A stretch of DNA of 46,231 nt, from the IMG/VR virus record IMGVR_UViG_3300042090_001045, one strand, 5' to 3'. Position 1 is the first letter of the stretch; each line of letters opens with the position of its first letter. A model generated the notes under the pieces. That model saw nothing but the letters and a program-made list of their open reading frames with translations, was not told the origin of the DNA and made no database searches. A program made the translations under genes and the position numbers. Shown here piece after piece: positions 39,088 to 40,005 of the stretch. The stretch comes from a virus.

Positions 39088-39189
39088 CTACCAGAAAAAT
39101 GCGATCAGGATTAACCCTAATACCGGCAACCAAGCTGGGGTTAGCGCGCACAAAATTAAAATTGCCGATTCAACTTTATAGTATTTCAT
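39088..39189 (-). CDS. Hydrophobic mini-protein (33 aa) ATGA-coupled to the last GY-repeat gene
   Basis: Hand-translated MKYYKVESAILILCALTPAWLPVLGLILIAFFW. Its start shares the conserved CGATGAAATAC junction. Confidence 0.45.
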   Translation of the reverse strand: MKYYKVESAILILCALTPAWLPVLGLILIAFFW

Positions 39190-39491
39190 CGCGTCACCAT
39201 TCGATAAGGGTACCCGCCCCAGCCGTTGCCGGTGCCGTTGCCGGTGCCGTAGCCTTTGCCGTAGCCGGTGCCGTAGCCGTAGCCGTAGCCGTTGCCGGTG
39301 CCGGTGCCGTAGCCGGTGCCGTAGCCGTCGCCGTAGCCGCCGCCGTTGCCGTAGCCGTAGCCGTTGCCGGTGCCGGTGCCGGTGCCGGTGCCGTAGCCGG
39401 TGCCGTAGCCGTAGCCGTAGCCGTAGCCGTTGCCGTAGCCGTCGCCGTCGCCGTCGCCGTCGCCGTCGCCGTTGCCGTCTGGATAGTTCAT
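39186..39491 (-). CDS. (Gly-X)n GY-repeat protein A1 (101 aa), unassigned family
   Basis: MNYPDG-(GX)n-GWGGYPYRMVTR. ATGA overlaps at both ends. Almost only NNC codons (GGC/TAC/GAC/AAC/ACC). Same strand as all neighbours. Confidence 0.75.
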   Translation of the reverse strand: MNYPDGNGDGDGDGDGDGYGNGYGYGYGYGTGYGTGTGTGTGNGYGYGNGGGYGDGYGTGYGTGTGNGYGYGYGTGYGKGYGTGNGTGNGWGGYPYRMVTR

Positions 39492-39733
39492 CGCGTCACC
39501 ATTCGATAAGGGTACGCACCCCAGCCGTTGCCGTAGCCGTAGCCGTAGCCGTAGCCGTGGCCGTCGCCGTAGCCGTAGCCGTAGCCGTCGCCGTAGCCGT
39601 CGCCGTTGCCGTTGCCGTTGCCGTAGCCGTAGCCGTAGCCGTAGCCGTCGCCGTAGCCGTTGCCGTCGCCGTGGCCGTGGCCGTGGCCGTGGCCGTGGCC
39701 GTTGCCGTGGCCGTGGCCGTCTGGGTATTTCAT
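39488..39733 (-). CDS. (Gly-X)n GY-repeat protein A2 (81 aa), with N-terminal Gly-His tract
   Basis: MKYPDGHGHGNGHGHGHGHGHGDG...GWGAYPYRMVTR. ATGA overlaps at both ends. Confidence 0.75.
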   Translation of the reverse strand: MKYPDGHGHGNGHGHGHGHGHGDGNGYGDGYGYGYGYGNGNGNGDGYGDGYGYGYGDGHGYGYGYGYGNGWGAYPYRMVTR

Positions 39734-40005
39734 CGCGTCACCATTCGGTAAGGGTAAGCGCCCCAGCCGTAGCCGCTGCCGTTGCCGCTGCCGTTGCCGT
39801 CGCCGTTGCCGTAGCCGTAGCCGTAGCCGTAGCCGTCGCCGTAGCCGTTGCCGTAGCCGTAGCCGTCGCCGTAGCCGTAGCAGTAGCCGTAGCCGCTGCC
39901 GTTGCCGTAGCCGTCGCCGTAGCCGTCGCCGTAGCCGTTGCCGTAGCCGTTGCCGTAGCAGTAGCCGCTGCCGTTGCCGTCGCCGTAGCCCTTTGGGTAT
40001 TTCAT
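39730..40005 (-). CDS. (Gly-X)n GY-repeat protein A3 (91 aa)
   Basis: ORF 39730-40074 trimmed to ATG 40005 (MKYPKGYGDGNG...GWGAYPYRMVTR). That ATG overlaps the TGA of the vWA gene (ATGA). Confidence 0.75.
   Translation of the reverse strand: MKYPKGYGDGNGSGYCYGNGYGNGYGDGYGDGYGNGSGYGYCYGYGDGYGYGNGYGDGYGYGYGYGNGDGNGSGNGSGYGWGAYPYRMVTR

What the first reader, a model, noticed from the sequence alone, without database searches (positions are those of the whole stretch)
39186..40005. Tandem triplet of translationally coupled (Gly-X)n 'GY-repeat' genes with conserved caps: an unassigned protein family
Three consecutive minus-strand genes (101, 81 and 91 aa) encode proteins in which every second residue is Gly for essentially the whole body. 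The other position is mostly Tyr, otherwise Asp, Asn, Thr, His, Ser, Cys or Lys.

All start M[NK]YP[DK]G and all end GWG[AG]YPYRMVTR. Each stop overlaps the next start (ATGA). Codons are almost exclusively NNC (GGC, TAC, GAC, AAC). The genes lie on the same strand as every neighbour.

I do not recognise this as any described phage, defence or anti-defence family. The composition has these known analogues:
- [G/S]Y[G/S] sticker arrays of phase-separating low-complexity domains;
- (GX)n beta-sheet silks;
- Gly-Tyr and Gly-His antimicrobial peptides of nematodes and plants.

Possible roles, all speculative: condensate or fibril formers in the infected cell, metal- or nucleic-acid-sequestering decoys, or substrates or clients of the adjacent AAA+/vWA-peptidase pair.
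Basis: partly seen in the sequence, partly recalled or inferred. Interest (0 to 1): 0.92.

Follow-up and report, generated by a model that had tools for sequence, protein, structure and literature searches.

The report
Hypervariable glycine-tyrosine repeat phage genes
A phage genome carries tandem, fast-changing small genes for disordered, acidic proteins in which every second residue is glycine and most others tyrosine; in related phages they nearly always follow an ATPase and protease/vWA gene pair, and no database or paper searched describes them.

Summary
The three minus-strand genes (91, 81 and 101 aa) exist as described, with ATGA overlaps and conserved caps. The window also holds a second cluster (43584-44154): two more GY genes and an 18-aa caps-only mini-gene.

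The GY frame is the coding frame. The Tyr and Pro residues of both caps are invariant in 34 unique genes while their third codon positions vary freely. Different lineages spell the same (Gly-X)n body with different synonymous codons.

I found capped GY genes in about 25 distinct contigs of uncultured phages and prophages (named hosts or bins: Luteibacter, Cupriavidus, Paraburkholderia). In all but one relative where the downstream DNA is held, 1 to at least 8 copies directly follow a zincin-vWA gene that sits beside a MoxR-like AAA+ gene. This holds down to 31% vWA identity.

Contigs with identical vWA genes differ in array length and copy number. AlphaFold finds no fold, and the proteins are acidic. 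Pfam, PHROGs, NCBIfam and PADLOC give no valid hit.

Best reading (inferred): disordered, self-associating Tyr/Gly polypeptides that are clients or substrates of the ATPase/zincin-vWA pair. The function is untested.

The parts
42386..42661 (-). p91, a conserved 91-aa protein of unknown function that opens the module
   Evidence: tblastn finds it (67-72% identity) just upstream of the AAA gene in L001, L002, L003, L007, L009, L020, L024, L025, L027 and L033. No hit in Pfam, PHROGs, NCBIfam or PADLOC.
41058..41840 (-). MoxR-like AAA+ ATPase (AAA_5)
   Evidence: Pfam AAA_5 E=9.5e-10; PHROG 1297 'ATPase' E=4.8e-27. Always adjacent to the vWA gene in relatives.
40002..41057 (-). Zincin metallopeptidase + vWA protein (DUF2201_N/DUF2201-like). 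Its stop overlaps the GY1 start.
   Evidence: Sub-threshold Pfam DUF2201_N and DUF2201 hits; PHROG 1314 E=2.7e-21. HExxH (H44 E45 H48), E73 and a DxSxS motif (D239 S241 S243) plus T311/D312 are invariant in 30 homologues of 34-90% identity. AlphaFold2 mean pLDDT 84. The best Foldseek hits are vWA domains (CLCA1 vWA, vWF A3), and a NorD chain of the NorQD complex is rank 6.
39730..40005 (-). GY1, 91 aa
   Evidence: The ATG at 40005 lies in an ATGA overlap with the vWA stop. An SD-like GGTGA lies 4 nt upstream.
39488..39733 (-). GY2, 81 aa, with an N-proximal (Gly-His) run
   Evidence: AlphaFold2 mean pLDDT 35, no secondary structure.
39186..39491 (-). GY3, 101 aa, rich in Asp and Thr
39088..39189 (-). 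33-aa ORF coupled to GY3 by ATGA. It starts MKY like a GY gene, then turns hydrophobic. Expression is uncertain.
   Evidence: Not conserved after the arrays of relatives.
44151..44429 (-). Small protein with a hydrophobic N-terminal stretch (92 aa read from the internal ATG). Its stop overlaps the GY4 start.
   Evidence: No valid family hit. A promoter-like site lies at 44493-44466; this is a weak consensus match only.
43915..44154 (-). GY4, 79 aa (second cluster)
   Evidence: Same caps: MKYPKG...GWGAYPYRMVTR.
43637..43918 (-). GY5, 93 aa (second cluster)
43584..43640 (-). Caps-only mini-gene, 18 aa: MNYPDGGWVRYPYHLITR. ATGA-coupled to GY5.
   Evidence: Analogous short members occur elsewhere: 28 aa in L051 and 16 aa in L057.
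43436..43573 (-). 45-aa hydrophobic ORF after cluster 2, followed by a terminator-like hairpin at 43315-43296
   Evidence: Consensus-level evidence only.

Best explanation
SHOWN:
- These are genuine protein-coding genes of an undescribed phage family.
- Each gene has a short N-terminal motif (M-[KR]-x0-1-[YL]-P-x-G), a hypervariable (Gly-X)n body, and a C-terminal motif ([YH]-P-[YHT]-x-[LM]-hydrophobic).
- The body is about 49% Gly, 24% Tyr, 12% Asp and 10% Asn. It is acidic and has no predicted fold.
- The genes are chained by ATGA stop/start overlaps with an SD-like GGTGA inside the last codons. This arrangement is typical of termination-reinitiation coupling.
- Arrays differ in length and copy number between contigs whose flanking gene is identical.
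- Each array is homogeneous for one synonymous codon flavour, as expected from slippage or unequal recombination of a hexanucleotide unit.
- In nearly all relatives the array sits directly downstream of, and coupled to, a zincin-vWA gene next to a MoxR-like AAA+ ATPase gene.

INFERRED:
- The GY proteins are the dedicated client or substrate of that ATPase/zincin-vWA machine.
- The two caps are docking or cleavage motifs for the zincin-vWA protein. The Asp-rich body offers ligands for the vWA metal site.
- The Tyr-Gly body self-associates into an amyloid-like or condensate-like assembly in the cytoplasm of the infected cell.
- The ATPase and peptidase control that assembly or its processing.
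- What the assembly does to the host is not known.
For: CODING FRAME
- In 34 unique genes the N-cap Tyr and Pro are invariant, but their codons vary: TAT 19 / TAC 15; CCC 12 / CCA 12 / CCG 10.
- The C-cap Y-P-Y behaves the same way. The final GTG ACG CGA TGA shows almost no synonymous change, as expected for an RBS plus an overlapping start.
- The same (Gly-X)n protein is written as GGC+NAC in the window, GGC+NAT in L009, GGA+NAC in L013/L026, GGT in L050, and mixed codons in L037 and L051.
- Gly is in register at 1071 of 1093 body positions.
- Variation is concentrated at hexamer position 4.

SYNTENY WITH THE vWA GENE
- The vWA gene is directly followed by GY genes in the window, L001, L003, L005, L007, L008, L009, L010, L020, L024/L025, L027, L030, L031, L033 and L034.
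- The same holds in a Cupriavidus oxalaticus prophage, L048, with 5 genes.
- It holds in L049 (vWA 55% identical, at least 8 genes), L050 (44%), L051 (39%, at least 7 genes), L052 (39%), L059 (31%) and the AT-rich L037.

THE PARTNER ENZYMES LOOK ACTIVE
- The zincin HExxH and the DxSxS motif are invariant in 30 homologues.
- The vWA fold is confirmed.

PHYSICAL PROPERTIES
- AlphaFold2 pLDDT is 35.
- Median pI is 4.1 and GRAVY about -1.2.

EXPERIMENTAL PRECEDENT
- Ac-GYGYGYG-NH2 self-assembles into amyloid-like fibrils that retain Cu, Ni, Co and Zn ions (PMC8163036, PMC10510724).

GENOMIC PRECEDENT
- MoxR-vWA systems associated with a zincin peptidase and a small, rapidly diverging precursor that keeps a conserved C-terminal peptide (PMC7159879, section 24).
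Against: - No expression, interaction or cleavage data exist. The link to the vWA pair rests on synteny and coupling only.
- L002 has an intact p91-AAA-vWA module with HExxH but no GY gene. The pair therefore has a role that does not need GY proteins.
- GY arrays also occur away from a vWA gene: window cluster 2, and L057, where none was found within 14 kb.
- (Gly-[YDNS])n bodies are also fused to unrelated small domains in other phage-like contexts without MoxR/vWA neighbours. The body may therefore act on its own.
- High Asp content opposes aggregation.
- Part of the strain-level length variation could be a short-read assembly artefact.
Confidence: 0.45

Rival explanations
1. Stand-alone anti-defence or host-takeover decoys. 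The acidic, Tyr-rich disordered proteins bind or soak up a host protein (a defence sensor, kinase, nuclease or nucleic-acid-binding protein). They act independently of the AAA+/vWA pair, which merely shares the early operon.
For: - The genes are accessory: absent from L002.
- They are strain-variable, small, acidic and sit in the early/replication arm.
- Arrays exist without an adjacent vWA gene: window cluster 2 and L057.
- GY-type bodies are fused to other small phage domains.
- In L012 an RtcB RNA ligase gene follows the array.
Against: - No similarity to any known anti-defence protein; PADLOC and PHROGs give nothing.
- This reading does not explain the tight translational coupling to the vWA gene, kept down to 31% vWA identity.
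- A low-complexity binder of this kind has no characterised precedent that I know of in phages.
Confidence: 0.2
2. Largely neutral hexanucleotide expansions inside a tiny ancestral ORF. The ORF consists of the two caps only, like the 18-aa mini-gene. The function lies in the caps, or simply in relaying translation to downstream genes; the body is tolerated filler.
For: - Caps-only or very short members exist: 18 aa in the window, 28 aa in L051, 16 aa in L057.
- Lengths range from 18 to 133 aa.
- Each array is homogeneous for one codon flavour, the signature of slippage.
- Contigs with identical vWA genes differ in arrays.
- A hexamer unit can never break the reading frame.
Against: - Gly is in register at 98% of positions, and hydrophobic X residues are almost absent, even though GTC, TTC and ATC are one mutational step away.
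- Long bodies are kept in every lineage, including old, non-homogenised copies with mixed codons (L037, L051).
- Multiple full-length paralogues are retained, up to at least 8-10 per array.
Confidence: 0.15
3. Precursor peptides of a secreted or membrane-acting product, by analogy with Gly-rich microcins or Gly-Tyr/Gly-His antimicrobial peptides. The zincin would trim the caps, and the small hydrophobic ORFs downstream would act as immunity or export helpers.
For: - Tandem short paralogues with conserved ends beside a peptidase.
- In the window both clusters are followed by a small hydrophobic ORF.
- The Gly-rich microcin and Gly-Tyr/Gly-His antimicrobial peptide analogy comes from my own knowledge and was not tested.
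Against: - No signal peptide or double-glycine leader is visible in the sequences.
- No exporter or radical-SAM enzyme appeared among the genes I scanned. Not every small ORF was scanned.
- The hydrophobic ORFs are not conserved after the arrays of relatives.
- The products are acidic, not cationic.
Confidence: 0.08
4. Metal-buffering or metal-delivery polypeptides (Asp/Tyr/His ligands) serviced by a MoxR-vWA pair, by analogy with the metal-insertion chaperones NorQD and CoxDE.
For: - GY2 carries a (Gly-His) run, and Asp makes up 12% of body residues.
- GY7 fibrils retain divalent cations (PMC10510724).
- MoxR-vWA pairs such as NorQD insert metals (PMC13036017 and PMC9976466 abstracts).
Against: - His is 0.4% of body residues family-wide, so the His run is a peculiarity of one copy.
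- No metalloenzyme target is evident in the operon.
Confidence: 0.05
5. The repeats function as DNA or RNA rather than as protein: a protein-binding array, a structured RNA, a DGR variable region, or a plus-strand gene.
For: - Positions 3 and 6 of the hexamer (synonymous sites) are nearly invariant within the window.
- Long ORFs also run through the arrays on the plus strand.
- X codons resemble the NNC outcome of DGR adenine mutagenesis, and the phage is related to the BPP-1 group.
Against: - Synonymous flavour differs between lineages while the GY protein and its caps stay the same. The other five frames therefore change or acquire stops.
- No Rfam match.
- None of the large ORFs I scanned has a reverse-transcriptase domain, and no all-AAC template array is present.
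- Start, stop and SD signals fit only the GY frame.
Confidence: 0.03

Closest known systems
MoxR-vWA conflict systems with a zincin peptidase and a small, rapidly diverging precursor protein (FxSxx-COOH and related types). Predicted by Kaur, Burroughs, Iyer and Aravind 2020, PMC7159879.
   Same: A MoxR-clade AAA+ ATPase, a vWA partner, a zincin metallopeptidase, and a small, fast-diverging protein that keeps a conserved C-terminal motif, all in one gene neighbourhood.
   Different: - Here the zincin is fused to the vWA domain.
- No VMAP, iSTAND, FtsH, radical-SAM or AP-ATPase component appeared among the genes I scanned.
- The small protein is a multi-copy (Gly-X)n low-complexity polymer with two caps, not an FxSxx, RxD or acidic peptide.
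- The host is a phage, not a multicellular bacterium.
- No sequence homology was detected.
MoxR AAA+/vWA chaperone pairs with one dedicated client (NorQ-NorD, CbbQ-CbbO, RavA-ViaA, CoxD-CoxE)
   Same: An AAA_5 ATPase next to a vWA protein with an intact DxSxS motif. A NorD chain of the NorQD complex is among the structural matches. The expected logic is that the vWA domain grips an acidic residue of a client while the ATPase remodels it.
   Different: - The known clients are folded enzymes (nitric oxide reductase, Rubisco, respiratory complexes).
- Here the only conserved candidate client is a disordered repeat protein.
- The vWA protein also carries a peptidase domain.
Prion-inspired (X-Tyr)n peptides (GYGYGYG, NYNYNYN, SYSYSYS) and the [G/S]Y[G/S] low-complexity domains of FUS-like proteins
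   Same: Alternating small or polar residue and Tyr. The G/Y/N/D/S composition resembles prion-like domains. GY7 forms amyloid-like fibrils in vitro (PMC8163036, PMC10510724).
   Different: - The phage proteins are 10 to 20 times longer than the heptapeptides.
- They are strongly acidic: about 12% Asp, against almost none in the FUS low-complexity domain (own knowledge).
- They are strictly period-2, capped by two conserved motifs, and encoded as tandem free-standing genes.
- Self-assembly of the phage proteins has not been tested.
Gly-Tyr and Gly-His antimicrobial peptides (nematode NLP/caenacin, plant shepherins) and (Gly-X)n silks. Comparison from my own knowledge, not tested.
   Same: Gly at every second or third position, with Tyr or His as the main partner.
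   Different: - Those are secreted eukaryotic peptides or fibres with signal peptides, and are usually cationic or neutral.
- The phage proteins have no leader that I could see and are acidic.
- The periodicity and the caps differ.
Polymorphic Gly-rich repeat gene families such as mycobacterial PE_PGRS. Comparison from my own knowledge.
   Same: A conserved terminal module, a Gly-rich repeat body that changes length quickly by recombination, and multiple paralogues.
   Different: - PGRS repeats are GGA/GGN-type motifs on large secreted or cell-wall proteins with a folded PE domain.
- Here the proteins are 18-133 aa with 6-aa caps and a period-2 body, in phages.

Membership tests
MoxR-type AAA+ / vWA co-chaperone pair (the neighbours) | AAA+ ATPase of the MoxR clade (AAA_5) | tested here: met
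   Pfam AAA_5 at 39.1 bits against a cut-off of 22, E=9.5e-10.
MoxR-type AAA+ / vWA co-chaperone pair (the neighbours) | Adjacent vWA-domain protein with a metal-binding site (DxSxS...T...D) | tested here: met
   D239, S241, S243, T311 and D312 are invariant in 30 homologues. The predicted fold matches vWA domains, including a NorD chain of NorQD. The Pfam DUF2201 hit itself is below its cut-off.
MoxR-type AAA+ / vWA co-chaperone pair (the neighbours) | Physical complex and ATP-dependent remodelling of a client | not testable with these tools
   Needs biochemistry or multimer modelling.
Zincin peptidase + small diverging precursor (FxSxx-COOH-type peptide-processing systems) | Zincin (HExxH) peptidase encoded beside the small protein | tested here: met
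   The HEQAH motif is invariant (H44 E45 H48). The DUF2201_N hit is sub-threshold at 20.2 bits against 23.2.
Zincin peptidase + small diverging precursor (FxSxx-COOH-type peptide-processing systems) | Small, rapidly diverging protein with a conserved C-terminal peptide | tested here: met
   The body is hypervariable and the C-cap [YH]P[YHT]x[LM].. is conserved across lineages. This is a resemblance in architecture only.
Zincin peptidase + small diverging precursor (FxSxx-COOH-type peptide-processing systems) | Sequence membership (FxSxx, RxD or acidic motif; NCBIfam models) and a radical-SAM/SPASM or AP-ATPase partner | tested here: not met
   No NCBIfam or Pfam hit for the GY proteins. No radical-SAM or STAND gene among the window ORFs I scanned. 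Not every small ORF was scanned.
Zincin peptidase + small diverging precursor (FxSxx-COOH-type peptide-processing systems) | Cleavage of the small protein by the peptidase | not testable with these tools
   Needs an in vitro or in vivo cleavage assay with mass spectrometry.
Prion-like / (X-Tyr)n self-assembling low-complexity sequences | Alternating polar or small residue and Tyr, polar composition, lack of a stable fold | tested here: met
   Body composition is G 49%, Y 23.5%, D 11.8%, N 10.1%. AlphaFold2 pLDDT is 35. GRAVY is about -1.2.
Prion-like / (X-Tyr)n self-assembling low-complexity sequences | Demonstrated fibril or condensate formation | not testable with these tools
   Shown only for synthetic GY7 peptides (PMC8163036, PMC10510724).
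Diversity-generating retroelement variable region | Reverse transcriptase plus a template repeat differing from the variable repeat at adenines | tested here: not met
   No reverse-transcriptase domain in the large ORFs I scanned. No all-AAC template copy. The same pattern is present in many relatives.
Collagen-like (Gly-X-Y) or RTX/PGRS (GGxGxD nonapeptide) repeats | Period of 3 or 9 residues | tested here: not met
   The period is 2 residues (6 nt).
Class II microcin / bacteriocin precursor with immunity gene | Double-glycine or Sec leader, dedicated exporter, conserved small membrane immunity protein | tested here: not met
   The N-terminus is MKYPKG followed directly by the repeat. No exporter appeared among the genes I scanned. 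The hydrophobic ORFs after the window arrays are not conserved in relatives.

The most novel reading that the evidence does not exclude
A virus-encoded, enzyme-controlled self-assembly system. Phages would make large amounts of hypervariable Tyr-Gly 'sticker-spacer' polypeptides that form an amyloid-like or condensate-like material in the infected bacterium. A dedicated MoxR-type AAA+ ATPase and a zincin-vWA protein would recognise the two conserved caps to load, dissolve or trim it. The material would serve to compartmentalise replication or to trap host factors such as defence proteins. The same Gly-[Tyr/Asp/Asn] module fused to other small phage proteins would then act as a targeting tag for that material.
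Probability: 0.2. Interest if true: 0.88.

Novelty: new variant of a known kind. Interest (0 to 1): 0.72.

Why it matters
If the inference holds, this would be, to my knowledge, the first natural case of free-standing period-2 Gly-Tyr low-complexity proteins in phages. They would have their own ATPase/peptidase machinery and a built-in mechanism for rapid length variation.

It would give a genetically simple bacterial model for regulated protein self-assembly. Lysogens exist in sequenced Cupriavidus and Luteibacter genomes.

It would also give a candidate client for the DUF2201-type zincin-vWA/MoxR gene pair found in this phage group, whose function is unknown.

There is a practical point as well. 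These genes break assemblies and are mis-framed by gene callers, so the family is nearly invisible in protein databases.

Tried and rejected
- **Family libraries.** Pfam, PHROGs, NCBIfam and PADLOC gave only sub-threshold low-complexity matches for the window's GY proteins (TrAA12 linker, keratin head, 'serine-rich protein'). I discarded them.
- **Word-indexed protein search with GY2.** It returned other (Gly-[YDN])n proteins with unrelated flanks, not the capped family.
- **Exhaustive profile search.** 273 hits, best E=1.7e-9, nearly all on the body only. One distant capped member was found (P0043). Searching again with P0043 found only itself.
- **Exact-sequence look-up of GY2.** Not on record.
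- **Cultured phages (INPHARED).** No nucleotide match to 38000-43000 and no tblastn match to the vWA protein. The DNA polymerase places the phage near the BcepC6B and BPP-1 groups at 51-56% identity.
- **AlphaFold2 of GY2.** No usable model (pLDDT 35), so I did not run a fold search on it.
- **Solved structures.** A sequence search with the vWA protein found nothing.
- **DGR hypothesis.** Rejected: no reverse transcriptase and no template repeat.
- **tRNA supply hypothesis.** The window has no tRNA genes.
- **Structured RNA.** No Rfam hit.
- **Queuosine-tRNA codon idea.** About 90% of X codons are NAY. No supporting gene was seen, and lineages use NAC and NAT alike. I keep it only as an unexplained coincidence.
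- **Small hydrophobic ORFs as conserved partners.** Rejected, because relatives lack them.
- **Literature.** Five searches found no description of such phage genes.
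Full report
**1. The observation**

The window holds three consecutive minus-strand ORFs at 39730-40005 (91 aa), 39488-39733 (81 aa) and 39186-39491 (101 aa). 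In each, Gly occupies every second position of the body. All start M[KN]YP[KD]G and end GWG[AG]YPYRMVTR, and each stop overlaps the next start as ATGA.

The stop of the upstream 351-aa gene (40002-41057) overlaps the GY1 start in the same way. The GY3 stop overlaps the start of a 33-aa ORF.

Codon usage is extreme. GGC accounts for 115 of 117 Gly codons, against 47% in the rest of the genome, and TAC for 54 of 57 Tyr codons, against 62%. Tandem Repeats Finder reports a period-6 array of 127.5 copies at 39222-39990.

**2.

A second period-6 array lies at 43672-44139. It belongs to two more GY genes on the same strand, with the same caps: GY4 (43915-44154, 79 aa) and GY5 (43637-43918, 93 aa).

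They are followed by an 18-aa gene made of the two caps alone, MNYPDGGWVRYPYHLITR (43584-43640). All are ATGA-coupled. They are preceded by a small protein with a hydrophobic N-terminal stretch, whose stop overlaps the GY4 start.

The window therefore has five full GY genes and one mini-gene, in two clusters about 4 kb apart.

**3. Is the GY frame the coding frame?**

I collected 34 unique complete capped genes from the window and related loci.
- The N-cap Tyr and Pro are invariant, yet their codons vary freely (TAT 19 / TAC 15; CCC 12 / CCA 12 / CCG 10).
- The C-cap Y-P-Y behaves in the same way.
- The last codons, GTG ACG CGA TGA, show almost no synonymous change.

The first two patterns are what purifying selection on a protein produces. 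The last is what a nucleotide signal produces: an SD-like GGTGA four bases before an ATG that overlaps the stop.

Second, each array is homogeneous for one synonymous 'flavour', but flavours differ between lineages:
- GGC+NAC in the window;
- GGC+NAT in the Luteibacter prophage (TAT 33 of 33);
- GGA+NAC in L013/L026;
- GGT in L050;
- mixed codons in L037 and L051.

The (Gly-X)n protein and its caps are the only thing these versions share. The other five reading frames change or acquire stops.

Third, in 180 in-register hexamers of the window, positions 1-3 and 6 are nearly fixed, position 4 carries 1.71 bits and position 5 carries 0.75 bits. Family-wide, Gly is in register at 1071 of 1093 positions. 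X is Tyr, Asp, Asn, Ser or Thr, with almost no hydrophobic residue.

A neutral microsatellite would not look like this. A functional DNA, RNA or plus-strand element is very unlikely. There is also no Rfam hit, no tRNA gene, and no reverse-transcriptase domain in the large ORFs I scanned.

**4. Distribution and synteny**

The window is a phage genome of about 46 kb. It carries terminase, portal, head and tail-fibre genes on the plus strand and a replication arm on the minus strand. Its DNA polymerase is 51-56% identical to those of Burkholderia phage BcepC6B and Bordetella phage BPP-1.

There is no nucleotide match, and no match to the vWA protein, among 50,697 deposited phage records. Pattern scans and protein look-ups nevertheless found capped GY genes in about 25 distinct contigs:
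- viral and metagenome contigs;
- a prophage of Luteibacter sp. Sphag1AF;
- a 38-kb contig binned to Paraburkholderia;
- a prophage in the Cupriavidus oxalaticus chromosome.

The conserved gene order is p91, then a MoxR-like AAA+ ATPase, then the zincin-vWA protein, then the GY array. In the window an HNH endonuclease gene is inserted after p91.

The array follows the vWA gene in every relative for which downstream DNA is held, except L002. This synteny reaches far:
- L049: vWA 55% identical, at least 8 genes, caps M[KR]LP[NR]G...YPTAAVIA, many Phe;
- L050: 44%, MKELPKG...GWGKHPHSLMVIK;
- L051: 39%, at least 7 genes, MK[VEA]LPxG...YPH[SN]LIVKVG, with old, degenerate bodies;
- L052: 39%;
- L059: 31%;
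- L037: AT-rich.

Two arrays lie away from a vWA gene. One is window cluster 2. The other is L057, an 87.6-kb contig with at least 10 genes, a different C-cap (GTVEGR), and no vWA gene found within 14 kb.

**5. Dynamics**

Four peat-bog contigs have 100% identical vWA genes (1044 of 1044 nt). Their arrays differ in gene number (3 versus at least 6) and in gene length. The first gene is 87, 95 or 133 aa; the 133-aa form carries a 38-aa internal duplication.

Many contigs end inside arrays (L001, L003, L008, L013, L029/L033, L053). One gene caller chose the wrong frame in L050.

This explains the poor representation in protein databases. It is also a caveat: part of the apparent polymorphism could be an assembly artefact.

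Within a genome the caps are uniform. In some lineages the C-terminus of the vWA protein matches that of the GY proteins: VVTR/MVTR in the window, L048, L010 and L020, and TAVIA/AAVIA in L049. The junction is therefore homogenised together with the array.

**6. The neighbours**

The ATPase is an AAA_5 (MoxR-clade) protein. For the 351-aa protein:
- HExxH (H44 E45 H48), E73 and the DxSxS motif with T311/D312 are invariant in 30 homologues of 34-90% identity;
- AlphaFold2 gives mean pLDDT 84;
- the C-terminal half matches vWA domains, including CLCA1 vWA and a NorD chain of the NorQD complex.

Both activities therefore look intact. Eighty-one homologues were found, named at most 'predicted metal-dependent peptidase' or 'IrrE N-terminal-like'.

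**7. Properties of the GY proteins**

AlphaFold2 finds no structure (pLDDT 35). Median pI is 4.1, GRAVY is about -1.2, and aromatic content is mostly 15-30%. I could see no signal peptide or membrane segment.

Synthetic GYGYGYG spontaneously forms amyloid-like fibrils that retain Cu, Ni, Co and Zn ions (PMC8163036, PMC10510724).

Period-2 Gly-[Tyr/Asp/Asn/Ser] bodies also occur fused to unrelated small domains in many other small proteins. Of the three whose contigs I read, two lie in clearly phage-like contexts, and in both the gene follows a DUF6948 gene. The body thus looks like a reusable module.

**8. Mechanism**

Shown:
- a conserved, translated-frame gene family;
- gene junctions typical of termination-reinitiation coupling;
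- hexamer slippage or recombination dynamics;
- deep synteny with an apparently active zincin-vWA and MoxR-like ATPase pair.

Inferred (confidence about 0.45): the GY proteins are the client or substrate of that pair. The caps would act as short linear docking or cleavage motifs. The Asp-rich, Tyr-rich body would form a self-associating material whose assembly or processing the enzymes control.

This follows the general logic of MoxR-vWA pairs, in which the vWA domain grips a peptide and the ATPase remodels. It also follows the predicted bacterial systems in which a zincin peptidase cleaves a small, rapidly diverging precursor with a conserved C-terminal peptide (PMC7159879).

Evidence against:
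- L002 keeps the enzyme pair without GY genes;
- some arrays lack an adjacent vWA gene;
- the GY module occurs elsewhere without these enzymes.

Rivals, with my confidence in each:
- independent decoy or anti-defence protein (0.2);
- tolerated microsatellite filler in a caps-only ORF (0.15);
- secreted peptide precursor (0.08);
- metal buffer (0.05);
- nucleic-acid-level element (0.03).

**9. Novelty and verdict**

I found no family model and no paper that describes these genes.

The architecture is closest to MoxR-vWA systems with a dedicated client or a peptidase-processed small protein. However, it fails the membership tests for those families: no sequence homology, no radical-SAM, STAND or VMAP partners among the genes scanned, and a fused zincin-vWA protein.

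I therefore file it as a new variant of a known kind, namely a MoxR-vWA-peptidase module with a novel hypervariable low-complexity third component. A more radical reading, a viral enzyme-controlled self-assembly system, is not excluded.

The finding is real, conserved and unexplained. Its interest is high, tempered by the complete absence of functional data.

Noticed in passing
window 39088-39189 (-) and 43436-43573 (-): Each GY cluster in the window is followed by a small hydrophobic ORF. The first is 33 aa, ATGA-coupled, and starts MKY like a GY gene. The second is 45 aa. They are not conserved after the arrays of relatives, so their status as genes is uncertain.
   Followed up: partly
window 41837-42349 (-): An HNH endonuclease gene (Pfam HNH_3, PHROG 99) sits between p91 and the AAA gene in the window. 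The relatives with upstream DNA (L001-L003, L007, L009, L020, L053) have p91 directly before the AAA gene. It looks like a mobile insertion into the module.
   Followed up: partly
L023 4478-4861; L035 2094-2498; proteins P0001-P0159: Many other small proteins carry period-2 Gly-[Tyr/Asp/Asn/Ser] bodies joined to unrelated N- or C-terminal domains. Two of them directly follow a DUF6948 gene in phage early regions. PHROGs 10432 and 11232 (unknown function) match such tracts. The GY body looks like a reusable module.
   Followed up: partly
L050 1688-1855; contig ends in L001, L003, L008, L013, L029/L033, L053: A gene caller read a GY gene in the wrong frame (VTVTV...). Many assemblies break inside the arrays. 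The family is therefore systematically under-represented in protein databases.
   Followed up: yes
L057 about 11764-14037 (reverse-complement coordinates of the locus): An 87.6-kb viral contig carries at least 10 tandem M[KR]YPVG...(Gly-Phe/Tyr/Asp)n...GTVEGR genes, including a 16-aa mini-gene. The C-cap is different, and tblastn finds no vWA or AAA gene within the 14 kb held.
   Followed up: partly
L012 691-1899: An RtcB RNA ligase gene (Pfam E=2.6e-125) lies directly downstream of the GY array in one relative. Elsewhere the downstream genes differ: ERF in L009, and RecT/YqaJ further downstream in L048.
   Followed up: partly
window 40002-40013, and the vWA gene ends in L048, L010, L020 and L049: The last residues of the zincin-vWA protein match the last residues of the GY proteins of the same genome: VVTR versus MVTR, and TAVIA versus AAVIA. 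The junction, with its SD-like GGTGA and ATGA, appears to be homogenised along with the array.
   Followed up: partly
window 39186-40005 and 43637-44154: About 90% of the non-Gly positions are Tyr, Asp, Asn or His. These are exactly the four amino acids decoded by queuosine-modified tRNAs (NAY codons). This is probably just the one-step mutational neighbourhood of TAC combined with selection against hydrophobic residues. No queuosine-pathway gene was seen.
   Followed up: partly
window 42386-42661 (-): p91, a 91-aa protein with no family hit, is conserved (67-72% identity) upstream of the AAA gene in ten related loci. It may be a fourth component of the module.
   Followed up: partly
window 27433-28824 (-): The SNF2-family helicase in the replication arm gives its best PADLOC matches to DpdE and ZorD models (E=4e-18). 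This probably reflects the general SNF2 fold.
   Followed up: no
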